DNA of 42,285 nucleotides from a virus (IMGVR_UViG_2778261056_000004:1-42285); one strand, 5' to 3'. Shown: positions 25,640 through 42,285, numbered from the stretch's first letter. Numbers and translations are program-made. The notes: generated by a model from the sequence alone, not told the origin.

Positions 25640-26692
25640 TTATTCCCCTGCCAACGCCCGTATTTCCCCCAACGTCTGATTAAACCTTTCCTCTTCGAGT
25701 TCAACGCCAATAGCCTGGCGGCCAAGTTCCAGCGCGACTTTCACGGTCGAACCGGACCCCATAAAGAAATCAGCCACCACATCACCAGGCTTACTGCTGG
25801 CGTTGATGATCTGCCGCAACATGTCAGCGGGTTTTTCGCATGGGTGTTTACCTGGATAAAACTGAACGGGTTTATGTGTCCAGACGTCGGTATAAGGAAC
25901 GGATACGGAAACAGAGAAATGTCGCCGAAGTGATTTGTACTCTTCGAGCAGCTCTGAATACTTGCGATTCAACGAATGCCACATAGCCACCAGCTGGTGG
26001 TGTGGTGTTGCCAGTTCGCCGTTCTGGTTCTTTTCGTTGGCTACCTGCGTGAAAAGGGACTGAAGCTTCCGGTAGTCTGATTCATTCGGTAATTGCCACT
26101 GGCTACCGCTGAACCAGTGAGACACCATGTTCTTCTTTCCAGTCGCATCGGCTATTTGTTTTGAGGATATGCCAAGCGCTTCACGTGCATCCCGGAAATA
26201 AGAAATTAGGGGAGTCATTACATGCTGCTTCAGCTCGCTTCCCTTCTCAGCGTACCCATCGCTCTTTGGTTTATACGGCCCTTGGTAATGCTCAGCGAAA
26301 AGGATGCGCTCTGTTGCAGGGAAGTAAGAACGCAGGCTCTCTTTATTACAGCCATTCCAGCGGCCCGACGGTTTAGCCCAGATGATATGGTTCAGGACGT
26401 TGAACCGCTCACGCATCATGATCTCAATGTCTGCTGCCAGACGGTGACCGGAGAAAAGATAAAGACTGCCGGCAGGTTTAAGCACTCGCCAGAATTGTGC
26501 GAGGCACATATCAAGCCAGCGAAGATAATCCTCATCCCCTTTCCACTGATTGTCCCAGCCGTTGGGTTTCACTTTGAAGTACGGCGGATCCGTGACTATC
26601 AGGTCAATGGAGTTATCAGGGAGAGTGGCGATGTATTGCAGGCTATCAGCGTTGACTAACTCAACACTGTTTATATTTACAGTATTTTTCAT
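25640..26692 (-). CDS. DNA methyltransferase (N6-adenine/N4-cytosine, DPPY type), orphan
   Basis: Motif IV TDPPY near N-terminus and motif I FFMGSGST near C-terminus; no adjacent restriction enzyme gene. Confidence 0.8.
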   Translation of the reverse strand: MKNTVNINSVELVNADSLQYIATLPDNSIDLIVTDPPYFKVKPNGWDNQWKGDEDYLRWLDMCLAQFWRVLKPAGSLYLFSGHRLAADIEIMMRERFNVLNHIIWAKPSGRWNGCNKESLRSYFPATERILFAEHYQGPYKPKSDGYAEKGSELKQHVMTPLISYFRDAREALGISSKQIADATGKKNMVSHWFSGSQWQLPNESDYRKLQSLFTQVANEKNQNGELATPHHQLVAMWHSLNRKYSELLEEYKSLRRHFSVSVSVPYTDVWTHKPVQFYPGKHPCEKPADMLRQIINASSKPGDVVADFFMGSGSTVKVALELGRQAIGVELEEERFNQTLGEIRALAGE

Positions 26693-26901: not shown

Positions 26902-27306
26902 TCAAGCAGCAGGTTCGGATGGATAAACCTGCTCATACATCTGCTGAAGGGTGTCAATAGCTTTGTTAGCCATTATCAATATAGCTTCCGCATCAGCCTT
27001 ACTTAAAGTTCTATCAAGCTCGTAATCTGCCCATTTACGTCGGGTATGCAAATGTCTCAGCATTGTTCCCATAGAAATGAGTTTCATTTTTTCAAACGGC
27101 TCATTTCCTTTTAACCATGCATCATTTGTAAGATAGTCGCGAACAGCTTGGTGTGACGACTTGTTTGGGCATTTCTCAAGCTTATCAAGCGTTTCATGAT
27201 AAACTCCATAATACGCTCGACCAATGGCGTTTCTGTAACCGATTTCATCGTTGTGAGAAATGCATTTACCAGCAAAAACAATAAAATCTTTCCCCGATAC
27301 GCTCAT
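26902..27306 (-). CDS. hypothetical protein, 134 aa (weak HEPN-like R-x6-H motif)
   Basis: AT-rich, translationally coupled (ATGA) to upstream ORF; IGRAYYGVYHE motif; no family recognised. Confidence 0.4.
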   Translation of the reverse strand: MSVSGKDFIVFAGKCISHNDEIGYRNAIGRAYYGVYHETLDKLEKCPNKSSHQAVRDYLTNDAWLKGNEPFEKMKLISMGTMLRHLHTRRKWADYELDRTLSKADAEAILIMANKAIDTLQQMYEQVYPSEPAA

Positions 27307-28082
27307 CAGTAAATCCCTCTTTTTTCATCGCTTTGAAACCAGGATGTAAAAGGGCTGTTCCGATAACTATCATCTGAGAGCAAAACCAACAGTTCCATGT
27401 TCATTTCAGCTAAAACCTGCGGATCAGCAGTTTGGGCTCTAACGATGAATGCATTGTCATCATCTCCACCAAGATAATAGCTAACACTTGAACAGTTAAT
27501 ACCGCGCTTGTTCGCAATCTCTTCAGCTTGATCGCAAAGGGCTTCTAGTTCTCGAGAAGAAAGACGGGTAGCGTTTTTGAAATCAACAATCTGTTCAGCC
27601 ATATAATTTCCCTGATTGATTATATCCTCTCGCTCTTGGCCATCATAAAGAGCAGCCATTTTGAGGGAGAACTTTTTAACCAACTTGTCGTTGCCGATAC
27701 AAAATGCAGCGTTTCTTGCTACAAGCCTCAGTTCATGTGAAGGGAAAAGCTCAACTATTCTAAACAACTCAACGCGATGCTCATAGTTATGAGCCGAACG
27801 AGAAAGATACGCCAAGTAGTTTTGTGCGATCGTTGGACTCCCAGAGCTCATCGCGTCTTTGAATAAACGTACTGCATCAGAGTGACGCCCGAGAGTTCCA
27901 TTAAGCCATGCATACGCATGTGCGCGCTCACTTATTGGAAGTTTAGCAATGTCGCGCTCAATTTCCGCAATAGTGTCTGTATCCGGGACTTCTCCCTTCT
28001 GGAAGTAATCGAGGATTGTTGCAAGCAGTTCTTGTTCTTTTGACTCAGGCTGTCCTGACATAATTTTCCCGAAGAAAACCAA
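27306..28082 (-). CDS. hypothetical alpha-helical protein, 258 aa (start may be the second ATG, MSGQPESK)
   Basis: AT-rich ORF downstream of the putative late promoter/terminator; no family recognised. Confidence 0.4.
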   Translation of the reverse strand: MVFFGKIMSGQPESKEQELLATILDYFQKGEVPDTDTIAEIERDIAKLPISERAHAYAWLNGTLGRHSDAVRLFKDAMSSGSPTIAQNYLAYLSRSAHNYEHRVELFRIVELFPSHELRLVARNAAFCIGNDKLVKKFSLKMAALYDGQEREDIINQGNYMAEQIVDFKNATRLSSRELEALCDQAEEIANKRGINCSSVSYYLGGDDDNAFIVRAQTADPQVLAEMNMELLVLLSDDSYRNSPFTSWFQSDEKRGIY

Positions 28083-28412
28083 ATTCTGTATGTTTTCAAT
28101 AGCTTCACTGGATAGATTTTTATATTGCTGTCATCAGTATTGAAGCTTTTACGGGATTGTACAGGACCATCAGCGTTCTACTTGTGCATAAGAATTTAAT
28201 AAACCTACAGACTTATCCACAGAAAAAAGAGTTATCAACAAAAAAAGTTATTCACAACTTAACTAATAGCAAAATATTGTTGATAAGCTGTGCGTAATTA
28301 TCATATCCATCAAACTTACGCACATTAGAGCCTTGTGTTGCCTATCCATCGTTTTTTCCTATCAAAACGAAACGACATGCTTTTCTGCGATTAAAAAAGT
28401 ATTCCGCAAAAT

Positions 28413-28440
28413 TAAAAAACCCGCTCACTGGCGGGTTTAT
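28413..28440 (-). terminator. rho-independent terminator, candidate tR' downstream of a putative late promoter
   Basis: Minus strand AAACCCGCCAGTGAGCGGGTTTTTTAATTTT, about 45 nt after a -35/-10-like pair TTGCAA-N17-GATATT. Confidence 0.45.
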
Positions 28441-28530
28441 ATACTGTTGGCAACATATCAAATTAGCTTCAAATATCGCTTATTTTGTTGCATTTTGCAA
28501 GCCTGATTGAAGACGTTAGTGAAATTTACT

Positions 28531-29223
28531 TCACATTTCTACCACTTTCACTTCTTCATACTCTTCGTACCGCGCCAGGCTTTCACGTAACGCCAGGCTG
28601 TCCATTTCCACGAAAGCTGCTTTAAATGCTGCCCAGTGAGCAGCGTATACCCTGAGCCAGGTTGAACGCTCCACGCTCACCATGCGGGCCAGTGCCGCCC
28701 CCGCATATTCCTGGTACGTATCGTTATTGCGTGATGCTGCAACTTCCTGGGCCGCGAGCCAGACAAGCCCCACTAATTTTTTTGTGACTCTGTCCTGGAG
28801 CTTCTTACGGCCCTGCTGATGCTGAAACTGTGCCCAAACGTACTGGCACATCAACGTCTGGTACCGGAAAGACAGATCATATCCATAGCAATACCTGACC
28901 CACGCCTGCAGATGCTCTCCAAGGCCATTTACCGAGCGGCGCCACGCAGAACTCGCAAACTCGGCATCCTTCATAGGGGGTAATGGGCGTCGACGGCTTC
29001 TTGTCTCCAGAACATAAAGCGGAGTGGCCAGAGTTTTTACAACCTTCGATCCACAACCTTCCCCACCCTCCATGACGATTTCAGGATGGTGCCGAGGGTA
29101 TTTATTCTTATCTGCTGGTGGATGCTCACTGAACGCCTGCAGCTGTCCTTTTGTCGATCCTGATAAATCCGCCAGCGCGCGGCGCAGTTCAATCCGCGTA
29201 TATTCCAGTTCTTGTAAATTCAT
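28531..29223 (-). CDS. putative late-gene antitermination protein (Q-like)
   Basis: Position immediately upstream of the promoter/terminator pair and late genes; Cys/His-containing 230 aa protein; first ATG at 29223 (track start is TTG). Confidence 0.4.
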   Translation of the reverse strand: MNLQELEYTRIELRRALADLSGSTKGQLQAFSEHPPADKNKYPRHHPEIVMEGGEGCGSKVVKTLATPLYVLETRSRRRPLPPMKDAEFASSAWRRSVNGLGEHLQAWVRYCYGYDLSFRYQTLMCQYVWAQFQHQQGRKKLQDRVTKKLVGLVWLAAQEVAASRNNDTYQEYAGAALARMVSVERSTWLRVYAAHWAAFKAAFVEMDSLALRESLARYEEYEEVKVVEM

Positions 29224-29244
29224 TATGCTCAGCGCTCCATACAA

Positions 29245-30306
29245 TTACGCTTTTGTTATTACGCCGATCGCCAGCGCTCGATTCATAAACCGGAATAGCA
29301 GCTCCAGCTGGGTACCGTGTTTTTTCTCGAACGCTGCAACATCAGCATGTAATTTGTCGTGACACTCTCTGCACAGAGGGATCACAAACAAATCGTGGGC
29401 TTTAGTGGCGGTACCGCCCATGCCGTGACCAATGACATGGTGTGGATCATCCGCTGGCCGCCGGCAACCTTCACAGGGCTGGGTTTTAACCCACCGGGTA
29501 TAGTCCTCATTCACCCACCTGCGGTGTTTTGGGCGCAACATGAAGGATTCAGGGGATTCAGGATCCGCATGCAGAGCCAAAACCTGTGGCTGGTCATAGG
29601 CCACTTCCTGATTTGTTCCATGCTTTAATTGCGCAGCCGTGACCGCAGGGGTGACCTTCTTCTGCAAAATGCTTTTTGCCGGGGGCATCGGCACAATGTC
29701 ACTTTCGCGATAAACGGATAAAAACGGCTCATCCGGTAAGCGAAGCGCATGCTGGGCCATCCTTTCCGTGATTGCATCAGCAATGCCTGAGTAAACGGCC
29801 CACCAGCACAATTCACCGAGGGATAGTTCACGCTCGTTGTTGTAGCCAAGCGAAGACAGGATGGAACTGATCAGCCAGCTAATGAGATTACGGCGGGCCA
29901 GTTCTGCCAGCGCCGCGGTGGTTTGCTCGCGCAGCTGGTTATCGCAATGCCAACAGAGCAACATTGATCCGGGGGGATGTCGCATTGTTACCAGCTCAGG
30001 ATGGTGATAATCAGTGTGCGGGTACTGGCATTCCTTCACGTTACGCTCTAACCAGGATTCCAACCCGGACAAACCGCCTGCTGCACGAATAACTCTCTCG
30101 TCGGTGAAGAATTCCTCGAGGGACTTATCTTCTGCCAGCGGCTGCCTGGCATCAGGGACGAGCCCTGACGGAAGCCCAGCCATGCTTTTTGGCTGAGGCT
30201 CCACCAGCACACGCCCCTGTTGAAACAGAGACATCAGTTCGCTACCCGGCTTTAACACCACAAGCCCCAGGCGCGGAACAGTCTCAGCTGTAAACAGTCC
30301 TCTCAC
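29245..30306 (-). CDS. DUF968-like protein with C-terminal HNH-like Cys/His motif
   Basis: C-terminal CEGCRRPADDPHHVIGHGMGGTATKAHDLFVIPLCRECHDKLH; position typical for lambdoid nin-region genes. Confidence 0.55.
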   Translation of the reverse strand: MRGLFTAETVPRLGLVVLKPGSELMSLFQQGRVLVEPQPKSMAGLPSGLVPDARQPLAEDKSLEEFFTDERVIRAAGGLSGLESWLERNVKECQYPHTDYHHPELVTMRHPPGSMLLCWHCDNQLREQTTAALAELARRNLISWLISSILSSLGYNNERELSLGELCWWAVYSGIADAITERMAQHALRLPDEPFLSVYRESDIVPMPPAKSILQKKVTPAVTAAQLKHGTNQEVAYDQPQVLALHADPESPESFMLRPKHRRWVNEDYTRWVKTQPCEGCRRPADDPHHVIGHGMGGTATKAHDLFVIPLCRECHDKLHADVAAFEKKHGTQLELLFRFMNRALAIGVITKA

Positions 30307-30995
30307 GCGGCATGCCCCTTAGCGATGTGTGCCGTCCAAAGGCCGCCGATCCACTCGATGCCTTTGGGTGTAAAACGTGCCTGGCTAAAGGCGTAGTTTG
30401 TTTCGCTCGTGGTGCCAGTTTTCACTTCAAACCGCCCGGCAGCTATGTGCTGGTGCCGCGGTGTCAGCACTCCACTGAGCCGGTATAAAATGCCGCTCTC
30501 AATGAGGAACAAGCGGAAATCCGTCTCTTTGGCCTGCAACAGCTTTGCCACCTGGCGAAAAGACATTGAGCCTTTAGCAGTACAATACCGATCGACAAAC
30601 TCAACTTTCGGCGCGGCAGCGGCTAACTGCTGGGCCAGTTGTTCTTTCTGCTCGGCCAGATCCGCGGCTAGACGTAATGCCTCCGGCAATGTTTGCGGGA
30701 CACTTACGGCCTGACTGTTCTCCAGCTCTTGCCAGCGATCGACAACAGCGGCGGTAAATTCTGGCGACAGCCTGGCGACGATCACCAGAGAATCACGTTT
30801 GTTGAACCAATACTCCTCGTAGGTTTGCCCGTTTTGAGGGTGTGTGTAGGGGGTGTGCGCCAACGGCGCGGTTAAAATACCAGCAGATGCAAGGCGCTCA
30901 GCTGAGCGCTTCACATCACCATGTTTGCTCTGCACCAGCCTGGCAATTTCACGGCTGGACATTGTCACAACACCCTTTGCGGTTAACTGATTCAT
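30303..30995 (-). CDS. phage antirepressor, Rha-like N-terminus with KilA-C-like C-terminus
   Basis: MSSREIARLVQSKHGDVKRSAERL resembles Rha family N-terminal region; RBS GGAGAA 5 nt before ATG at 30995. Confidence 0.6.
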   Translation of the reverse strand: MNQLTAKGVVTMSSREIARLVQSKHGDVKRSAERLASAGILTAPLAHTPYTHPQNGQTYEEYWFNKRDSLVIVARLSPEFTAAVVDRWQELENSQAVSVPQTLPEALRLAADLAEQKEQLAQQLAAAAPKVEFVDRYCTAKGSMSFRQVAKLLQAKETDFRLFLIESGILYRLSGVLTPRHQHIAAGRFEVKTGTTSETNYAFSQARFTPKGIEWIGGLWTAHIAKGHAA

Positions 30996-31098
30996 GCTAT
31001 TTCTCCATATCAGGCGGCTGCACCCGCCTTTTGATTTGCACATAATTCAGAAAGATTTGCCTCTACCAGCGCCACCAGCATAGTTATCAACGATAATT

Positions 31099-32433
31099 TC
31101 ACGCATTGACGGCCCCCAGCATGCTGTTGAAGAGACCACCAGCGGTCGTGATAATTTCACTCGTCGGCATACGTTCGAGCCACAGCTGGTTGATATTGGC
31201 TTTCAGCTTGTTCTGTTGTGAAACAGGTAGAGCGTCAGCCCCTTCAATCTGGTTAAACACCAGGCCAACCTCAAGAGGCCAAACGCGCGATTCGTTTAAC
31301 GCCTTGTCCTTTGATTCCTGCGTCTCACGGACATGGGCGCGGATCCCCCGAATATTTGACCATTTGGCTTTATCCAGGCTTTCCATGGTCGCGATGAATT
31401 CACTGTGGTTAATGCCGTATTCTTTCGCAGACTCAACGGCAACCGTGCGTAACCGCTCTGACATGTCTTGTTTCACGTCATCGCTATCAAAGGGCAATGT
31501 TTCCAGCCATGCATTAACACCCACCAGGATGCTCTCGCTGATCAGCTTTTTCGCTCTGTCGATCGTCAGCGGTGAAACATTGGTAAATTCAGGGTTCTCC
31601 AAAGAGTCGGCAGCCCAGGTATGACCAAACTTTGACTCGCTGAAGGTGTACTCATCTTTCTCGCCGAACGCCGCGACAACACAGGCCCAAGCCTCTACAC
31701 CACTGGTATCCAGAATGGCTTTTTGGGTTAATGGCAGTTCTGCCTCTGATTTCTCCGGCACTACCTCAGCGTCCAGCTCCGGCGCCGCATCAGTTTGCTT
31801 TCTTCCCACTGCAAACTGGGCCAGCGACATCGAAGCACGGCCTTTGGCCTCCAGGTCGGTGCGGTTGATGTAACTGAAACGTTCACCCCGCCATGTTTTG
31901 TCGAAGACCACGATAGCGCCAGCAAAAAATGCGCTGGTGGGTTGCTGCTTTTCGTCTTTCGGCACGAACCATGTAGGAAGATCGAAACCAATTCGGCCAC
32001 GGATGAATGTGACGTGATCTGCTTCTTCCGGCCACCACGTCTCACTCGTCGCAGACTTAATGAGAAAAACGTACCGACCACCCTTTTCTCGCATTGCCAT
32101 AGCGTGGTTAATGATGTGGGTCATTCCGGTAACGGCCTGCTTGTCGTGGTACTGAGAGCGGCTGTAAGGCGGGTTGCCAAACCCGGCACCACCGAGCTCT
32201 GCCAGACGCTCTGACCAATCCTGCGTCAGGGCATTATCTTCAGCCGTGTACCATGCTGGGCACTTCGCGTTACTGTCGTCGGCAAAAAGGTCCAACACCA
32301 GAGGGCCGAACATCGCATTGATACCCCAAAACAACAGATCCGGAGTACGCCATTGATCGCCGACCTCTTTCAACTCGTGGGCTGGTCTTGAACGCAGTTC
32401 AGCCAACGCCCGGCAGTATTTATTTTCATTCAT
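31099..32433 (-). CDS. phage Dam-like N6-adenine DNA methyltransferase with long C-terminal extension of unknown function
   Basis: GFGNPPYSR motif in an N-terminal domain of about 200 aa; further 240 aa without recognised motifs; start overlaps O-like stop. Confidence 0.7.
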   Translation of the reverse strand: MNENKYCRALAELRSRPAHELKEVGDQWRTPDLLFWGINAMFGPLVLDLFADDSNAKCPAWYTAEDNALTQDWSERLAELGGAGFGNPPYSRSQYHDKQAVTGMTHIINHAMAMREKGGRYVFLIKSATSETWWPEEADHVTFIRGRIGFDLPTWFVPKDEKQQPTSAFFAGAIVVFDKTWRGERFSYINRTDLEAKGRASMSLAQFAVGRKQTDAAPELDAEVVPEKSEAELPLTQKAILDTSGVEAWACVVAAFGEKDEYTFSESKFGHTWAADSLENPEFTNVSPLTIDRAKKLISESILVGVNAWLETLPFDSDDVKQDMSERLRTVAVESAKEYGINHSEFIATMESLDKAKWSNIRGIRAHVRETQESKDKALNESRVWPLEVGLVFNQIEGADALPVSQQNKLKANINQLWLERMPTSEIITTAGGLFNSMLGAVNA

Positions 32434-33284
32434 CCTCTGAACCCCTCTGGAATCTTGGTATCAACCGGACCGAACTTCATCGGATCGTGTTTCTTTTCAC
32501 CCCAGCTTTCACGCGGTGGACGCCCCTTCTTGTCCCAACGGATCCCGCTTTGCAGATAACCCTCAAACTTTTTCGGGCCAAATAGCGTTTCAGGGCGCAT
32601 GTACTGGTACTGCACGTCATTGCCGTTCCAGTGCTCATGCTTAAGGTCAATCACCAGCTGTAACTCGCCAACGGTGTAACCTTCACGCAAACGAGCACGG
32701 ATGTTTTCCAGAGAAGTTTTTGATTTTTGGTATCGTGAGCCGCTAACCAGGTTCAGATGATTCAGAACCAGGATGGCGTTATCGGTGATCGTCACTTCAA
32801 GGTCTGGTTGCTGCGCAACCGGACAAGAAGGTTTTTTAACTGATGGATCAGTAGTTGTATTTACTGACGGATCCCCCCCAGATTCTGACGGGTGAAAACT
32901 GCCTTTCTCATCGTTTTTTGATGCCTCAGATTTTGACGCGTCGGTTTTTGAGGCATCAGATTTTGATGCGTCAGAATCTGACAGGTGAGAAAAGGCAGCA
33001 GCCTGCAATTTCGCAACATTGAGCTGGTAAACGTTCGATGCATTTCGGTTGCCTTTACGGCGCTGCTGGCGGGTTAACCAACCATCTTTTTCCAGCTGAG
33101 ATATGGCTGTGCGAACCGTGCTCTCACCAGCACCAATCTGGCGCGCGATGGTAGCGATGGAAGGCCAGCTAACCCCTTCATCACTGCTGAAGTCTGCCAG
33201 ACGCGCCATGATGGCAACGCTGGATAGCTTCATGCCAGAAGCGGCACAAGCATCCCAAACGTAACCCGTTAATTTAGTGCTCAT
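32430..33284 (-). CDS. replication initiation protein (O-like; N-terminal HTH, conserved phage C-terminal domain)
   Basis: N-terminal YVWDA...SWPSIATIARQIGAGESTVRTAISQLEKDGWL winged-helix pattern; central acidic DASK repeats; C-terminal LNHLN...YMRPETLFG; RBS AAAGGA. Confidence 0.6.
   Translation of the reverse strand: MSTKLTGYVWDACAASGMKLSSVAIMARLADFSSDEGVSWPSIATIARQIGAGESTVRTAISQLEKDGWLTRQQRRKGNRNASNVYQLNVAKLQAAAFSHLSDSDASKSDASKTDASKSEASKNDEKGSFHPSESGGDPSVNTTTDPSVKKPSCPVAQQPDLEVTITDNAILVLNHLNLVSGSRYQKSKTSLENIRARLREGYTVGELQLVIDLKHEHWNGNDVQYQYMRPETLFGPKKFEGYLQSGIRWDKKGRPPRESWGEKKHDPMKFGPVDTKIPEGFRG
32880..32990. repeat. tandem about 15-bp iteron-like repeats inside the replication initiator gene (candidate origin)
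   Basis: About five imperfect copies of TCAGATTTTGACGCG (plus strand), encoding SDASK repeats; lambda ori iterons also lie within O. Confidence 0.45.
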
Positions 33285-33293
33285 GGTCGTCCT

Positions 33294-33620
33294 TTAACTC
33301 TGTAAACTTGCGCTTGAATTGTTCGAGCGGGCTGAAACATTCGTGGTCATATCCATCCCGCAGGTAGATAACTCGTTGAGTCTCTGGTTCCCACCTGATA
33401 ACCCGAACGGGGATCCCTCTGTGGTCTTTGAACCTTCGGTTAACTTCGCGCATAAGCGTTTCGCCTTCCTGTAGTAAACCCCCACAATTGCGACCGCCCG
33501 ACTGTGGTTACATGGCACCCAGCGGTTTGCTATTCTGCGTTCATACCGAAACAACGGAGCGCCCGGTACCGGGATCATCCTGAGTTGCGGTAAACGGTTA
33601 AAAGCCGTTAAACTGGTCAT
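33294..33620 (-). CDS. questionable small ORF between the CII-like and O-like genes
   Basis: ATG at 33620 with GGAGAA 9 nt upstream; low-complexity Arg/Ser-rich product; could be non-coding. Confidence 0.2.
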   Translation of the reverse strand: MTSLTAFNRLPQLRMIPVPGAPLFRYERRIANRWVPCNHSRAVAIVGVYYRKAKRLCAKLTEGSKTTEGSPFGLSGGNQRLNELSTCGMDMTTNVSARSNNSSASLQS

Positions 33621-33625
33621 GCGGA

Positions 33626-34231
33626 TTACTTCTCCATACAAGATTTGTCTGCCACGACGCCCGGAGCTGCACACTCGCGGGCGTCACCTTTTTCCGGCGC
33701 ACAAAACACACGGAAAAGCAGCGTCAAATGTTCCTGCCACTTAGCCATCACCTGATAGCTGTTCTCTTCGATCTGGGCGCGTTCCTGAGCATCAATAACG
33801 CCGTCAGCGGTAGCTTTACGAACGTATTGCGAATGCCTGCCGATCCACTCAACTGACTCCATGAGACGCTGGTTGATATCGCCGTTCTCAATATCTTCAA
33901 CATCAGCCAATGGCACAAACACACCGTTCGAGTGACGTGCAATAGCATTCGCTATGTGGTTTGAACCACCAGCACGCTGAAGCACCATCGCCCAACCGAG
34001 CGGGAAGATCTGATCACCATCGGTACGCAGCCGGTTAAACAGCGCGTTCTCGGTCACACCCAACCACTCAGCAGCTTCGGAATACCCGCCAGGAAGCTCG
34101 GTGATCGTTTTTTTGATTGCGGCCACCAGCCAGGCTGGCTGCTTATCTACTTTCCATTCAGGTTCTATACCCACGGCTAGGTCCTCCCTTCTGTGGTTAT
34201 TTCTGATCGTTAGGCGCTGTATTCTTGCCAT
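33626..34231 (-). CDS. CII/YdaT-like HTH regulator (start uncertain, 34258 or 34231)
   Basis: Internal HTH-like segment ELPGGYSEAAEWLGVTENALFNRLR; position directly downstream of the Cro-like gene. Confidence 0.35.
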   Translation of the reverse strand: MARIQRLTIRNNHRREDLAVGIEPEWKVDKQPAWLVAAIKKTITELPGGYSEAAEWLGVTENALFNRLRTDGDQIFPLGWAMVLQRAGGSNHIANAIARHSNGVFVPLADVEDIENGDINQRLMESVEWIGRHSQYVRKATADGVIDAQERAQIEENSYQVMAKWQEHLTLLFRVFCAPEKGDARECAAPGVVADKSCMEK

Positions 34232-34412
34232 AACGTTCTGGGTTGAATTCCAGTTCACCAGCAGTTCGATACGCAGCTTCAGCAGCTCGTCCTTTAGGGA
34301 TTAAGCGTCCGGGGCGATTACGCCACTGGTAAACGGCCTCACTGGTGATGCCAAAAAATTCGGCAACTTTCTCAGTGCTGCCGAAATGTTGTTCAATCTC
34401 GTCGGTTGTCAT
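34197..34412 (-). CDS. Cro-like HTH repressor
   Basis: 71 aa, HTH EKVAEFFGITSEAVYQWRN; strong RBS TAAGGAGG; divergent from cI. Confidence 0.65.
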   Translation of the reverse strand: MTTDEIEQHFGSTEKVAEFFGITSEAVYQWRNRPGRLIPKGRAAEAAYRTAGELEFNPERYGKNTAPNDQK

Positions 34413-34420
34413 GAAGCCTC

Positions 34421-34505
34421 CTTAGCTAAGTTTGGTTAGATATTAATAACCAATCTAACTTTGGTCAATAAAAACTAAGATTACTTAGTCTTTTTTAAAT
34501 TTGGT
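34421..34505. promoter_or_regulatory. OR-like operator/promoter region between cro-like and cI
   Basis: Palindromes CTTAGCTAAG, CTAAGTTTGGTTAG, ACTAAGATTACTTAGT sharing half-site CTAAG/CTTAG. Confidence 0.45.
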
Positions 34506-34511
34506 GCTTTC

Positions 34512-35138
34512 ATGGAAACAGTTGGTCAGCGCATTAAAGCCCTACGCAGGGTTACAAAAACCTCTCAAAAAGAACTGGGTAAGTTCTGCGGAGTGAGTGA
34601 CGTAGCGGTGGGTTATTGGGAAAAGGATGTGAATATCCCAAACGGAGAATCGCTGGTTAAGCTGGCTAAATTCTTCAATACATCAATAGATTACATTCTT
34701 TACGGCACTGAATTTGAAGGGACCCTCATAACTAAAATGAGGCGTGTGCCCGTGATTTCTTGGGTTCAAGCTGGGCAGTTTACGGAATGTAAGGCCGCTG
34801 ATTTATTCAGTGATGTCGATAAATGGGTTGAAACCTCACTACGTATTGGGGATAGCTCGTTCGCTTTAGAGGTCAAAGGGGATTCAATGACCAATCCAAA
34901 TGGCCTCCCAACAATTCCTGAAGGGGCAACCGTTATTGTCGATCCAGATGCCGAACCCCTTCATGGCAAGATTGTTGTTGCGCGTATTGATGGCACTAAC
35001 GAAGCGACTGTTAAAAAACTGGTCATTGATGGCCCACAAAAATTTTTAGTCCCACTAAATCCTCGCTACCCCAACATCCCGATCAATGGTAACTGCCTCA
35101 TTATTGGAGTAGTTAAAGGCGTTCAATACGAACTCTAA
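34512..35138 (+). CDS. CI-like prophage repressor, LexA-like (HTH plus peptidase S24 autocleavage domain)
   Basis: N-terminal HTH QKELGKFCGVSDVAVGYWE; Ala-Gly site (QAGQF), GDSM Ser and VKKL Lys as in LexA/lambda CI. Confidence 0.85.
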   Translation: METVGQRIKALRRVTKTSQKELGKFCGVSDVAVGYWEKDVNIPNGESLVKLAKFFNTSIDYILYGTEFEGTLITKMRRVPVISWVQAGQFTECKAADLFSDVDKWVETSLRIGDSSFALEVKGDSMTNPNGLPTIPEGATVIVDPDAEPLHGKIVVARIDGTNEATVKKLVIDGPQKFLVPLNPRYPNIPINGNCLIIGVVKGVQYEL

Positions 35139-35159
35139 TCCCTTTCCGCTCTTCCTCTA

Positions 35160-35215
35160 AGCATCAAGCTAAGTTTAGTTTGATGTTTCGCTTGACCAAC
35201 AAACTAAGTTAAGTT
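35160..35215. promoter_or_regulatory. OL-like operator cluster downstream of cI
   Basis: Same CTAAG-containing motifs: AAGCTAAGTTTAGTTTG and AAACTAAGTTAAGTTAG. Confidence 0.35.
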
Positions 35216-35571
35216 AGATTTTTTCTGTCGACACCAAACCACCGCGCCTGATGTGGTTAAAAGCAGGCCAAAGCAATAAGAAGTGATCCCTGTTCTGGCT
35301 GCTCACTTTCCCCTGAGGGTGACAGCCAGCTTTTTAAGGGCACAACGTGAAAGCGCACTCCTTCTCTCTTTCACTGCGGGGGCAGGTTTGTTACCGAAGT
35401 AGTGCGCTTCCAGTTGTGGTAATGCGGCTCTGCGCACGTGACGAGGCCAACAAGTTTTTATTTCAACATTTGAAATGAATACGTTTCTTGAGGTGTAGCG
35501 TCGCCGGTTCTGGCCGGTCCGGCAGGTGGAGGCACCACCGCCACAACAAAATCATTGCTGTGTGTAGTCTT

Positions 35572-40885: not shown

Positions 40886-41095
40886 ATGGCAAAGCTAATG
40901 AAAGCGAGTCTCTGGAGTAAGCGCGAATTTACCAAAGACTCCATTCCTGACAACCGTACAATTAAACGTTGGGTCGAAAACGGATTACTCATGGGAAGGA
41001 TTGTAGATGGTTCAGTTTTTGTCTATGAAACCGAAAAGTGGGGAGTTGACTCAATTGTTAATCAGGCGGTACGTCAGTTAATAATTGAGGGTTGA
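40886..41095 (+). CDS. xis: excisionase
   Basis: Small basic protein directly upstream of and overlapping the integrase gene; RBS GGAGAAGGAAACC before ATG 40886. Confidence 0.55.
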   Translation: MAKLMKASLWSKREFTKDSIPDNRTIKRWVENGLLMGRIVDGSVFVYETEKWGVDSIVNQAVRQLIIEG

Positions 41096-41097
41096 CC

Positions 41098-42285
41098 ATG
41101 GCAGCAAGGCCACGAAAAAAAGAATACCGCCACCTTCCTGATTATCTTTTTTTTGATAAAGATCGTGGCGTGTATAAGTTCACGCTTATAACTGGCAAAA
41201 AGAAAACTCTCGGTTCGGATCGAGTAATGGCTATCGCCATCGCCCGAGAATATAACCTGAGGATGCGCCCAGAAAATACACCATCGATAGATTCATTAAT
41301 TCGGGAATCGGGAGGGATGAATGGTGAAGCCCACCCGTTTTCTGAACATGTTGATCGCATTATGGAGAGAGCGATCAAAGATGAGCAGCCGTCTAAAAGC
41401 ACACTTGACGATTGGAATAATGATGCCATCAGGGTTAAAGAATTTTTTAATAACATACCCGCATGCGACATTGAGCTTGAGCACGTAAATGCCTACATAC
41501 GAAATTACCATTCTGAATCGTCGGCCAATGTTCAGAACCGAAAAGTTAGCTTCCTGAAAAAGCTATTCTCTTATGCTGTGGATGAATCGCTAATGATGGA
41601 TAACCCTGCAACACGGAAAAAAATGCGGCGTGTCGATAAAAAGGTCCGCCGGCGACTTACTTTGGAACAGTTCCTGGCCATACATTCAGCTGCTGAACCT
41701 TGGCTGAAGACTGCAATGGACCTTGCAATACAAACTACACAAGCGCGCCTGGAAGTTTCCCGGATCCGGTACTCAATCAAGGAACCTAAAGAAGGGGTTT
41801 GCGGCTGTGTATGGTTCGATCAGGAAGAGGCTGGCATATTCGGAACGCTTTACATTCATCGGCAAAAAGTGCAGCACAAAGAGGCCTCACACGTTGCAAT
41901 TCCGATCGGCAGGGCCCTGAAAGAGATCATCGACAACAGCAGAGACAATGTGGCCAGTCCTTATGTTGTTCACCGACTTCTGGAAAAGAGAAGCAATCCG
42001 ATAAGCAAGGAAGTTAACCACCCAACACAGGTGGCCCCTGATTATTTGAGTAGGGCATTTTCAGAGCTGCGGGACCGGATAGGTGTAGCGGCAGAATTAC
42101 CTATCAAAGAAAGGCCAACTTTCCACGAGATTAGAGCGCTGGCGGCTCATATTTTCGAAAGACAGGGTATCGATCCGCAGGCAAGGATGGCCCATAGTGA
42201 TGCAAAATCGACAAAAATTTATACCCAGAACCATGTTGAATGGGTAGAAGTTCCTCATGCTGAAATTGTCCTTAAAGCCGGGTGA
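41098..42285 (+). CDS. int: tyrosine recombinase, phage integrase
   Basis: Conserved tyrosine recombinase C-terminal pattern (HEIRALAAHIF...HSDAKSTKIY); terminal gene of the prophage; stop at 42283-42285. Confidence 0.85.
   Translation: MAARPRKKEYRHLPDYLFFDKDRGVYKFTLITGKKKTLGSDRVMAIAIAREYNLRMRPENTPSIDSLIRESGGMNGEAHPFSEHVDRIMERAIKDEQPSKSTLDDWNNDAIRVKEFFNNIPACDIELEHVNAYIRNYHSESSANVQNRKVSFLKKLFSYAVDESLMMDNPATRKKMRRVDKKVRRRLTLEQFLAIHSAAEPWLKTAMDLAIQTTQARLEVSRIRYSIKEPKEGVCGCVWFDQEEAGIFGTLYIHRQKVQHKEASHVAIPIGRALKEIIDNSRDNVASPYVVHRLLEKRSNPISKEVNHPTQVAPDYLSRAFSELRDRIGVAAELPIKERPTFHEIRALAAHIFERQGIDPQARMAHSDAKSTKIYTQNHVEWVEVPHAEIVLKAG

What the first reader, a model, noticed from the sequence alone, without database searches (positions are those of the whole stretch)
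32880..32990. Iteron-like 15-bp tandem repeats inside the replication initiator gene
About five imperfect copies of TCAGATTTTGACGCG lie within the O-like gene and are translated as SDASK repeats. This mirrors lambda, where ori iterons lie inside O, and suggests the prophage origin and initiator binding sites are here. No helicase-loader gene follows; a Dam-like methyltransferase does.
Basis: seen in the sequence. Interest (0 to 1): 0.45.

Follow-up and report, generated by a model that had tools for sequence, protein, structure and literature searches.

The report
Prophage replication origin inside initiator gene
The short repeats inside this prophage's replication-initiator gene are conserved as DNA rather than as protein and change together with the initiator's DNA-binding helix, so they are very probably the phage's replication origin: a lambda-style arrangement in an initiator family that has not been studied experimentally.

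Summary
Five in-register 15-bp units (32911-32985) plus one outlying copy (32878-32888) lie in a 284-aa gene (32430-33284, minus strand; HTH_36 N-domain + Phg_2220_C C-domain) in a lambdoid cI-cro-cII replication module.

The conserved unit is an 11-bp near-palindrome, TCA(A/G)A(A/T)TCTG(A/G). It occurs nowhere else in the 42-kb window.

Across 76 relatives the N-domain keeps its amino acids while synonymous codons drift. From codon 98 to 161 (32802-32993) the pattern reverses: amino acids change but codons are frozen (p about 1e-13).

In phiP27 the same DNA motif is read in two frames. Nine lineages each carry their own dyad-symmetric array at this position, and the motif tracks the recognition helix. 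In two of them (PP9W2, Vibrio K75) some spacings are not multiples of 3.

The least stable DNA of the gene abuts the array, and the mosaic junction to exchangeable C-domains follows it.

It is a new member of a known kind. No helicase or loader gene is present. The protein ends in the same tail as host DnaT (IP.GFRG), which is a lead for host helicase recruitment.

The parts
32430..33284 (-). Initiator gene, 284 aa: HTH_36 winged-helix N-domain (aa 23-70 by Pfam), low-complexity linker, Phg_2220_C C-domain (aa 173-245)
   Evidence: ORF. Pfam PF13730 E=1.7e-9 and PF09524 E=5e-22. PHROG 11896/428/391 'primosomal / replication initiation / O-like'. It sits after cI-cro-cII-DUF4222.
32994..33284 (-). 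Coding region of the N-terminal DNA-binding domain (aa 1-97), including the presumed recognition helix ESTVRTAISQLE and the wing RRKGNRNASN
   Evidence: Amino acids are nearly invariant in 76 relatives while synonymous codons vary freely (mean entropy 0.93 bit). The helix is identical or near-identical in YeP1 and phiP27, which share the motif.
32802..32993 (.). Block under DNA-level constraint (codons 98-161): the proposed origin as a whole
   Evidence: 34 of 56 codons show no synonymous variation although amino acids change more than in the N-domain. The nucleotide alignment shows near-invariance up to CAACC.GAC, after which relatives diverge into different C-domains.
32971..32981 (.). Site 1: TCAGATTCTGA (minus strand), perfect 5+1+5 palindrome, preceded by CACCTG
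   Evidence: CAC CTG TCA is invariant in 75-76 of 76 relatives.
32956..32966 (.). Site 2: TCAAAATCTGA
   Evidence: unit profile.
32941..32951 (.). Degenerate unit TCAAAAACCGA (right arm lost)
   Evidence: looser pattern.
32926..32936 (.). Site 3: TCAAAATCTGA
32911..32921 (.). Degenerate unit TCAAAAAACGA
   Evidence: it is the fifth unit of the array found by TRF and the repeat finder.
32878..32888 (.). Site 4: TCAGAATCTGG, preceded by TTTCACCCG; a direct repeat of the site 1 context (CACCYGTCAGAWTCTG), 93 nt downstream of it
   Evidence: The codons TTT, TCA, GAA and TCT are invariant or nearly invariant (75-76 of 76), CCG is in 72 of 76, and CAC alternates with a D codon (49 H / 27 D).
32840..32873 (.). 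Two copies of GATCC(G/A)TCAG, 24 nt apart, each followed by A/T-rich sequence (GATCCGTCAGTAAATACAACTACT / GATCCATCAGTTAAAAAACC). Both contain GATC.
   Evidence: GAT CCG TCA GTA is invariant in 75-76 of 76 relatives. phiP27 has three GATCC copies.
32825..32865 (.). Least stable duplex segment of the gene (candidate unwinding element)
   Evidence: Nearest-neighbour free energy: least stable 30- and 40-nt windows of the gene; 99.3rd percentile of the whole window.
32433..32462 (-). C-terminal tail DTKIPEGFRG, matching the C-terminal tail of E. coli DnaT (DSQIPPGFRG)
   Evidence: A GFR-type tail (GFRG, GFRS/T or GFRV, up to six residues from the end) is present in 79 of 80 close relatives, including an unrelated C-domain type, and in mEp460/ST64B.
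31099..32433 (-). Dam-type N6-adenine methyltransferase gene; its start overlaps the initiator stop (ATGA)
   Evidence: PF05869 E=2e-43, aa 19-199 of 444. Relatives carry PF05869, PF02086 or PF05063 methyltransferases at this position.

Best explanation
The repeat zone is the phage's origin of replication, embedded in the gene of its own initiator as in lambda.

Proposed mechanism. The N-terminal winged-helix domain of the 284-aa protein recognises the 11-bp near-palindrome TCA(A/G)A(A/T)TCTG(A/G). There are four good copies and two degenerate ones at spacings of 15, 30 and 48 bp (32878-32981). Several initiator molecules (probably dimers, given the dyad symmetry) assemble on the array. The adjoining, least stable stretch (32825-32865), which carries two conserved GATC-containing repeats, is opened. 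The C-terminal part of the protein then brings in the host replicative helicase, because the phage encodes no helicase, loader or primase.

Because the sites lie in the part of the gene that codes for the flexible linker, they are also translated, giving the SDASK repeats. The peptide repeat is a by-product of the DNA repeat.

Shown: the repeat anatomy; uniqueness in the window; DNA-level purifying selection; independence from reading frame; co-variation of motif with recognition helix; adjacency of the least stable DNA; co-inheritance of N-domain and repeats while C-domains are exchanged; absence of phage helicase genes.

Inferred: that the protein binds these sites, that replication starts here, and how the helicase is recruited.
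For: (1) Real, unique array.

(2) DNA-level constraint. In 76 relatives, synonymous entropy is 0.93 bit in the N-domain and 0.24 bit in codons 98-168, with 34 of 56 codons frozen (Mann-Whitney p = 1e-13). Amino-acid conservation is lower in the linker (p = 1e-7). Pairwise, synonymous differences are 47/79 vs 5/40 (p = 6e-7), while amino-acid differences are 8/92 vs 16/56.

(3) Within units, positions 1-11 are conserved and three of the four spacer positions (12, 13 and 15) vary, regardless of codon position. The K-to-N changes (AAA to AAT) fall on the centre of the palindrome.

(4) Frame independence. phiP27 reads TTTGACCCTTCAGAWTCTGG as FDPSDSG and as VLTLQNLDP. Arrays in PP9W2 (spacings 16, 17, 23, 22) and Vibrio K75 (21, 23) are not peptide repeats.

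(5) Co-variation. WIN, YeP1 and phiP27 share the helix ESTVRTA.. and the motif. Six other helices go with five other dyad-symmetric motifs at the same gene position, with no cross-occurrence.

(6) Layout. The least stable DNA of the gene directly follows the array. The frozen block ends where relatives switch C-domain type.

(7) Replication context. The gene follows cI-cro-cII. Relatives are followed by DnaC-like + DnaB (phiP27), primase-helicase (SI5, Stx2a_F451) or DnaB (PP9W2).

(8) Precedent. Lambda, Stx phages, P22 and L have different iterons within the initiator gene (PMC7466680; PMC8022706).

(9) The isolated phage Flotzy, with a 99.3%-identical gene, has no helicase, loader or primase among its 64 CDS.
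Against: There is no experimental evidence for binding or origin activity in this protein family, and I found no paper on it.

The A+T-rich element is modest: about 68% A+T over 37 nt, and the intergenic regions of the window are less stable.

A 15-bp spacing is out of helical phase, unlike many plasmid iteron arrays.

Two of the six units are degenerate.

The codon-freeze test rests on one lineage; a second lineage was too shallow to test.

The sequences are phylogenetically related, so the p-values overstate independence.

The structure model was too poor to support any claim about dimerisation.
Confidence: 0.8

Rival explanations
1. The sites are real binding sites of the gene's own product but serve regulation rather than initiation. 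Examples would be autorepression by a transcriptional roadblock inside the gene, or copy-number control by pairing of arrays. The true start site would then lie elsewhere.
For: The evidence for DNA-level constraint and helix/motif co-variation shows binding-site behaviour, not origin firing. Databases call the protein a GntR-family regulator. In plasmids, iterons serve both initiation and control (established knowledge).
Against: No other repeat array exists in the early region. The only other origin-like feature, a DnaA-box cluster at 28183-28286, belongs to a cargo cassette that is absent from phage Flotzy and is found next to a different N-domain type. The least stable DNA abuts the array. 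Relatives are followed by helicase genes. The layout matches the proven lambda origin.
Confidence: 0.1
2. The conserved DNA is a module-boundary sequence. A stretch kept similar among mosaic lambdoid phages, or recently spread among them, because it is where N- and C-terminal modules recombine, with no role as a binding site.
For: The frozen block ends exactly at the mosaic junction to different C-domain types. Low divergence could in principle reflect recent exchange.
Against: Variation inside the block is not uniformly low. It is concentrated in the 4-nt spacers and in copy number (4-8 units), while the 11-bp cores stay fixed. The motif persists in YeP1 and phiP27, where the surrounding DNA has diverged (64-77% amino-acid identity), in phiP27 in a second frame. 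Unrelated lineages have different dyad-symmetric arrays at the same place, which a recombination linker does not predict.
Confidence: 0.05
3. The repeats are only a low-complexity, flexible protein linker (SDASK repeats) that arose by slippage. Any DNA regularity is a by-product of coding, or of an overlapping gene or RNA element.
For: The stretch is predicted to be unstructured (pLDDT about 30, aa 104-160). All units in the window are in frame, and copy number varies as in slippage-prone repeats.
Against: Codon choice is frozen while amino acids vary. The same motif is read in another frame in phiP27, and arrays are non-periodic with respect to codons in PP9W2 and Vibrio K75. No alternative frame stays open across relatives: 0 of 63 for four of the five alternative frames and 6 of 63 for the fifth. 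No Rfam family reaches threshold and there is no promoter-like site.
Confidence: 0.03

Closest known systems
Bacteriophage lambda ori within gene O (and the Stx-phage variants with six iterons)
   Same: The origin lies in the middle of the initiator gene, in the part that codes for the linker between an N-terminal origin-binding domain and a C-terminal partner-binding domain. It has several imperfect repeats with dyad symmetry followed, in the direction of transcription, by easily melted DNA. Extra repeats add residues to the protein. N-domain and repeats are inherited together while the C-terminal part is exchangeable (PMC7466680).
   Different: The protein is not in the lambda O Pfam family: no PF04492 hit, HTH_36 instead. 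The repeats are 11-bp cores on a 15-bp tandem period rather than ~19-20-bp iterons with spacers. The A+T-rich tract is weaker. No P-type loader gene follows; the neighbour is a methyltransferase.
P22 gene 18 and phage L gene 18 (in-gene repeats proposed as origins)
   Same: These are distantly related or unrelated initiators of lambdoid phages that each carry their own repeat inside the coding region. Phage L has six imprecise copies of an 11-bp sequence, read as the probable origin on sequence grounds alone (PMC8022706).
   Different: The motif differs (TGTCCAACGGA in L). Those phages encode a DnaB-type helicase (gene 12) next to the initiator; this one encodes none.
SPP1 G38P / DnaD-like 'replisome organiser' with oriL inside gene 38 (from my own knowledge, not checked here)
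   Same: An origin-binding protein whose binding repeats and adjacent A+T-rich DNA lie within its own gene. There are weak matches of this protein to DnaD_N (24.7 bits, below the 27-bit cut-off) and to PHROGs named DnaD-like helicase loader.
   Different: SPP1 encodes its own loader and helicase (G39P, G40P). The DnaD-type C-domain is not detected here. The similarity is sub-threshold.
E. coli DnaT (primosomal protein I)
   Same: The extreme C-terminal ten residues match: DnaT DSQIPPGFRG versus DTKIPEGFRG here and SQIPAGFRG in mEp460. This probably underlies the 'primosomal protein' annotations of relatives.
   Different: Nothing else is shared. The DnaT DNA-binding domain PF17948 is not detected. 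DnaT acts in PriA-dependent restart, not at an origin.

Membership tests
Lambda-type origin embedded in the initiator gene | Several copies of a repeated motif inside the initiator ORF, between the DNA-binding domain and the C-terminal domain | tested here: met
   Four good and two degenerate copies at gene nt 304-407, after the wHTH domain (aa 1-97) and before Phg_2220_C (aa 173-245).
Lambda-type origin embedded in the initiator gene | The repeats are constrained as DNA, not merely as coding sequence | tested here: met
   Frozen codons with variable amino acids. Copies in other reading frames in relatives.
Lambda-type origin embedded in the initiator gene | Repeat specificity is matched to the initiator's N-terminal domain | tested here: met
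   Nine lineages: the same helix goes with the same motif, different helices go with different motifs, and there is no cross-occurrence. This is correlative only.
Lambda-type origin embedded in the initiator gene | A+T-rich, easily unwound tract next to the repeats | tested here: inconclusive
   32825-32865 is the least stable part of the gene and is at the 99.3rd percentile of the window, but it is only about 68% A+T and less extreme than intergenic regions.
Lambda-type origin embedded in the initiator gene | The initiator binds the repeats and replication starts there | not testable with these tools
   Needs EMSA or footprinting and origin mapping.
Lambda O protein family (Pfam PF04492, Phage_rep_O) with partner P | N-terminal domain matches Phage_rep_O | tested here: not met
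   No PF04492 hit at E <= 0.01. The best hits are HTH_36, GntR and PaaX. Only the PHROG names say 'O-like'.
Lambda O protein family (Pfam PF04492, Phage_rep_O) with partner P | A P-type or DnaC-type loader gene immediately downstream | tested here: not met
   The downstream gene is a Dam-type methyltransferase. There is no helicase or loader in the window's early region or in the whole genome of phage Flotzy.
HTH_36 + Phg_2220_C prophage proteins (TIGR02220) | PF13730 N-terminal and PF09524/TIGR02220 C-terminal domains above the curated cut-offs | tested here: met
   PF13730 37.8 bits (cut-off 25); PF09524 78.2 bits (cut-off 27); TIGR02220 68.8 bits (cut-off 66.65). 2444 relatives at E <= 1e-5.
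Plasmid-type iteron origins (RepA/pi class) | Direct repeats of about 17-22 bp spaced in helical phase (multiples of about 11 bp), usually intergenic | tested here: not met
   11-bp dyad-symmetric cores on a 15-bp period, inside a coding region.
DnaD-like replisome organisers | DnaD_N winged helix and DnaB_2-type C-domain above threshold | tested here: inconclusive
   DnaD_N 24.7 bits, below the 27-bit cut-off. No DnaB_2 hit. PHROG 186/1701 'DnaD-like helicase loader' at E = 3e-7 and 2e-6. The structure model was too poor for a fold search, and there was no PDB profile hit.
DnaT (primosomal protein I) | DnaT DNA-binding three-helix domain (PF17948) | tested here: not met
   Not detected in any of the three C-domain types at E <= 1. 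Only the last ~10 residues match.

The most novel reading that the evidence does not exclude
This widespread class of enterobacterial prophage initiators dispenses with any phage-encoded helicase or loader because its conserved C-terminal tail (IP.GFRG) mimics the C-terminal tail of host DnaT. The tail would plug the origin-bound initiator directly into the host primosome / DnaB-DnaC loading machinery. The conserved GATC repeats in the unwinding zone, together with the adenine methyltransferase that is almost always encoded next to the initiator (three unrelated enzyme families), would couple origin firing to methylation state.
Probability: 0.25. Interest if true: 0.7.

Novelty: new member of a known kind. 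Interest (0 to 1): 0.42.

Why it matters
It gives a specific, testable origin (32802-32993) and initiator-site pair for a prophage replication module that is common in Escherichia, Enterobacter, Klebsiella, Salmonella and Citrobacter. Databases label the protein only as 'conserved phage C-terminal domain-containing protein', 'GntR family regulator' or 'primosomal protein'.

It shows that the lambda solution, binding sites written into the linker-coding part of the initiator's own gene, recurs across many specificities of an initiator family that Pfam does not place with lambda O. Each specificity has its own palindromic site.

It provides a clean example of a coding region where selection acts on the DNA and the peptide repeat is a passenger. 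That matters for annotation, for dN/dS scans and for engineering: recoding this gene would kill the origin.

The helicase-less design and the DnaT-like tail point to an unexplored route of host helicase recruitment.

Tried and rejected
**Overlapping gene.** Rejected. Four of the five alternative frames are closed in all 63 linker variants, and the fifth is open in only 6 of 63.

**RNA element or internal promoter.** Nothing at Rfam gathering level; the best hit is E = 0.21 and below threshold. No sigma-70-like site.

**DnaA-box cluster at 28183-28286 as the real origin.** Rejected for this module. The stretch is absent from phage Flotzy, which has the same initiator. It belongs to a cargo cassette that is also found beside a different N-domain type.

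**GATC enrichment.** There is no strong local excess over the window (202 sites against 174 expected in the whole window). Only the conservation of the two sites is notable.

**Structure prediction of the protein.** Mean pLDDT was 48.5 with a shallow alignment, so no fold search was run.

**Profile of ten C-domain variants against PDB sequences.** Only chance-level hits.

**Single-sequence PDB search.** Only weak wHTH regulators.

**Replicating the frozen-codon test in the mEp460/ST64B lineage.** The 80 loci fetched were 99-100% identical in the N-domain (21 variable sites in 264 nt), so the test was uninformative.

**DnaT similarity beyond the tail.** None.

**Literature.**
- No paper found on the origin of this family.
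- The Eru paper on non-lambdoid Stx phages does not discuss origins.
- The DnaT papers read do not assign a partner to residues 154-179.

Full report
**1. The observation**

The repeat is there. Tandem Repeats Finder reports 32916-32975 (period 15, 4 copies, 77% matches) and the same array at period 30 (32911-32972, 87%). The repeat finder gives four overlapping 30-nt copies at 15-nt spacing, 32911-32985. This is the only direct-repeat array in the whole early region 28000-35300.

They lie in a minus-strand ORF, 32430-33284, 284 aa, and are translated SDASK-SDASK-TDASK-SEASK-NDEK.

**2. The gene and its setting**

- The protein has an HTH_36 winged-helix domain (aa 23-70, E = 1.7e-9) and a Phg_2220_C domain (aa 173-245, E = 5e-22).
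- It has no hit to the lambda O family PF04492. PHROG families name it primosomal / replication initiation / O-like.
- On the minus strand the order is cro, a cII-like gene, DUF4222, this gene, a Dam-type methyltransferase (31099-32433, PF05869), Ant/Rha, DUF968-HNH and a Q-like antiterminator. A cI-like repressor is transcribed divergently.
- An integrase lies at 41092-42285, so this is an integrating lambdoid prophage.
- The gene is 96-99% identical to those of the isolated phages Flotzy, Eeyore and LLS. It has 2444 relatives at E <= 1e-5 in Enterobacterales, mostly named 'conserved phage C-terminal domain-containing protein' or 'GntR family regulator'.

**3. Anatomy on the coding strand**

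CACCTG-TCAGATTCTGA-CGCA | TCAAAATCTGA-TGCC | TCAAAAACCGA-CGCG | TCAAAATCTGA-GGCA | TCAAAAAACGA..., then 20 nt further on, TTTCACCCG-TCAGAATCTGG, then GGGGGATCCGTCAGTAAATACAACTACTGATCCATCAGTTAAAAAACC.

The recurring element is an 11-bp near-palindrome, TCA(A/G)A(A/T)TCTG(A/G). The pattern TCARAWTYTGR has four sites (7 strand-matches), all within 32878-32981, against 0.57 matches expected in the whole 42-kb window (0 of 100 shuffles reach 7).

**4. Is it DNA or protein that is conserved?**

I fetched 80 loci whose N-domain is 89-100% identical and built a codon alignment of 76 distinct sequences.

| | Codons 6-97 (N-domain) | Codons 98-168 (linker) |
|---|---|---|
| Mean majority-residue fraction | 0.95 | 0.84 |
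| Mean synonymous entropy | 0.93 bit | 0.24 bit |
| Codons with no synonymous variant | 3 of 87 | 34 of 56 |

The entropy difference gives Mann-Whitney p = 1e-13.

Pairwise, window against L048: 47 of 79 same-residue codons differ in the N-domain against 5 of 40 in the linker (Fisher p = 6e-7). Amino-acid differences go the other way, 8/92 against 16/56 (p = 0.002).

Within the units, positions 1-11 are conserved whatever their codon position, and three of the four spacer positions (12, 13 and 15) vary. The recurrent Lys-to-Asn change (AAA to AAT) falls on the central, asymmetric base of the palindrome, whereas the synonymous AAG is almost never seen. Copy number ranges from 4 to 8 units.

The frozen block runs from codon 98 to about codon 161 (32802-32993). 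It includes the non-repetitive flanks, so alignment of repeats cannot explain it.

**5. Frame independence and co-variation**

phiP27 has 64% N-domain identity and the same helix, ESTVRTAISELE. It has five copies of the same motif at spacings of 15, 15, 33 and 32 nt. The 20-nt sequence TTTGACCCTTCAGAWTCTGG is read once as FDPSDSG and once, in another frame, as VLTLQNLDP. YeP1 (77% identity) also keeps the motif.

Lineages with other recognition helices have other dyad-symmetric arrays at the same place (gene nt ~250-460):

| Lineage | Repeat | Copies / spacing |
|---|---|---|
| SI5, Stx2a_F451 | GGGGCAGGAGCTG(A/C)CC | x2-3 |
| mEp460, ST64B | GTGCAGGAGWTTCAC | x4-5 |
| Pseudomonas PP9W2 | CGGCAYNNNRTGCC | x5; spacings 16, 17, 23, 22 |
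| Vibrio K75 | GGGGTGTCAGAG | x3; spacings 21, 23 |
| Vibrio D67 | GTGAYNNNNTGTCAC | x3 |

No motif occurs in another lineage's gene. Arrays whose spacing is not a multiple of three cannot be peptide repeats. This is the behaviour expected of an initiator and its cognate sites.

**6. The flank and the mosaic junction**

The least stable 30- and 40-nt windows of the gene are at 32825-32865, directly downstream of the array in the direction of transcription. They sit at the 99.3rd percentile of the whole window, although at about 68% A+T this is a modest unwinding element.

This stretch contains two copies of GATCC(G/A)TCAG 24 nt apart, invariant in relatives. phiP27 has three. Other lineages have GAACCAGTCA x2-3 here, again in two reading frames.

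The frozen block ends at CAACC.GAC. Beyond it, relatives carry several variants of Phg_2220_C or an unrelated C-domain. N-domain and repeats thus travel together while the C-domain is exchangeable, as for lambda O, ori and the P-binding domain.

**7. Partners**

- With other C-termini, the gene is followed by DnaC-like + DnaB (phiP27), a primase-helicase (SI5, Stx2a_F451) or DnaB (PP9W2). This supports an initiator role.
- The window type, YeP1, mEp460 and ST64B have no helicase gene.
- The complete genome of the isolated phage Flotzy has none among its 64 CDS. Host factors must therefore suffice.

**8. Rivals**

- An overlapping ORF is excluded.
- No Rfam family or promoter-like site is found.
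- A recombination-linker explanation does not account for core-versus-spacer conservation, for the second frame in phiP27, or for lineage-specific palindromes.
- A purely regulatory role for real binding sites cannot be excluded without experiments. However, no alternative origin is evident. The DnaA-box cluster at 28183-28286 is cargo that does not travel with the module.

**9. Comparison with what is known**

In lambda and Stx phages the origin lies in the middle of O, with four or six iterons and an A+T-rich tract, and extra iterons add residues to O (PMC7466680). P22 gene 18 has four ~20-bp repeats. Phage L gene 18 has six imprecise 11-bp repeats, proposed as its origin (PMC8022706).

The present case has the same design in a different, uncharacterised initiator family (HTH_36 + Phg_2220_C). 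It differs in three ways: a compact 15-bp tandem period, a weak A+T tract, and no phage helicase or loader.

I found no publication on the origin of this family. I therefore rate it a new member of a known kind.

**10. A lead on helicase recruitment**

Seventy-nine of 80 close relatives, across unrelated C-domain types, and mEp460/ST64B carry a GFR-type tail (...IP.GFRG or LPENSGFR(S/T)) at or within a few residues of the C-terminus. E. coli DnaT ends ...DSQIPPGFRG, and the window protein ends ...DTKIPEGFRG.

The tail is absent from the four relatives that have their own helicase genes, but also from YeP1 and Vibrio D67. Nothing else of DnaT is shared. The papers I read do not define a partner for DnaT residues 154-179. 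This is a hypothesis only.

**Verdict.** I put the probability that this is the replication origin at about 0.8. Binding and firing remain to be shown.

Noticed in passing
window 32433-32462 (minus strand); L090 2479-3018 (E. coli dnaT): The initiator ends in DTKIPEGFRG, matching the extreme C-terminus of host DnaT (DSQIPPGFRG). A GFR-type tail is kept on three unrelated C-terminal domain types (Phg_2220_C variants, the 322-aa type ending LPENSGFRT, and mEp460/ST64B ending IPAGFRG / IPTGFRG). It is missing from relatives that encode their own helicase.
   Followed up: partly
window 31099-32433; L001 3861-4760; L024 4337-5029; L060 3879-4700; L061 3981-4789: The slot beside the initiator is filled by adenine DNA methyltransferases of three unrelated Pfam families in close relatives (PF05869 Dam, PF05063 MT-A70, PF02086 D12 class). 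YeP1, mEp460, ST64B and Vibrio K75 also have a methyltransferase one to three genes downstream. Together with the invariant GATC sites in the presumed unwinding zone, this hints at a functional link.
   Followed up: partly
window 28183-28286: Cluster of five DnaA-box-like sites (one perfect TTATCCACA, four with one mismatch) within 104 bp of very A+T-rich intergenic DNA, downstream of the Q-like gene and a terminator-like hairpin and upstream of ORF 27306-28082. Poisson P is about 2e-9. The stretch is absent from phage Flotzy and belongs to a cassette (DNA methyltransferase 25640-26692 plus two hypothetical genes) found in 12 E. coli genomes.
   Followed up: partly
L085 2811-2850; L086 2311-2350; L089 2269-2295; L083 2792-2801; L084 2813-2822: A second conserved motif, GAACCAGTCA (1-3 copies), follows the lineage-specific arrays in E. 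coli, Salmonella and Vibrio phages with otherwise different sites. It occurs in two reading frames (PRTSHS and EPVKEP). It occupies the place of GATCC(G/A)TCAG in the window and may be a shared origin element, such as an unwinding or host-factor site.
   Followed up: partly
L001-L080, codons ~104-140 of the initiator: The number of 15-bp units varies from 4 to 8 among close relatives, so the protein linker varies by multiples of five residues. This parallels the 4-versus-6 iteron difference between lambda and Stx phages.
   Followed up: yes
window 31099-32433: The Dam-type methyltransferase has a ~245-residue C-terminal extension (aa 200-444) with no Pfam domain. The homologue in L001 is 299 aa and in L058 439 aa, so the extension is variable. 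PHROG annotation transfers the misleading name 'phosphoadenosine phosphosulfate reductase' to it.
   Followed up: no
L061 3981-4421 and 4409-4789: In this relative the D12-class methyltransferase gene is split into two overlapping ORFs (a frameshift or a sequencing error). It is intact in L060.
   Followed up: no
window 32430-33284 and homologues: Public records name this protein 'GntR family transcriptional regulator', 'conserved phage C-terminal domain-containing protein', 'primosomal protein' or 'replication protein O'. None of these reflects a tested function, and the GntR and lambda O labels are not supported by domain membership.
   Followed up: yes
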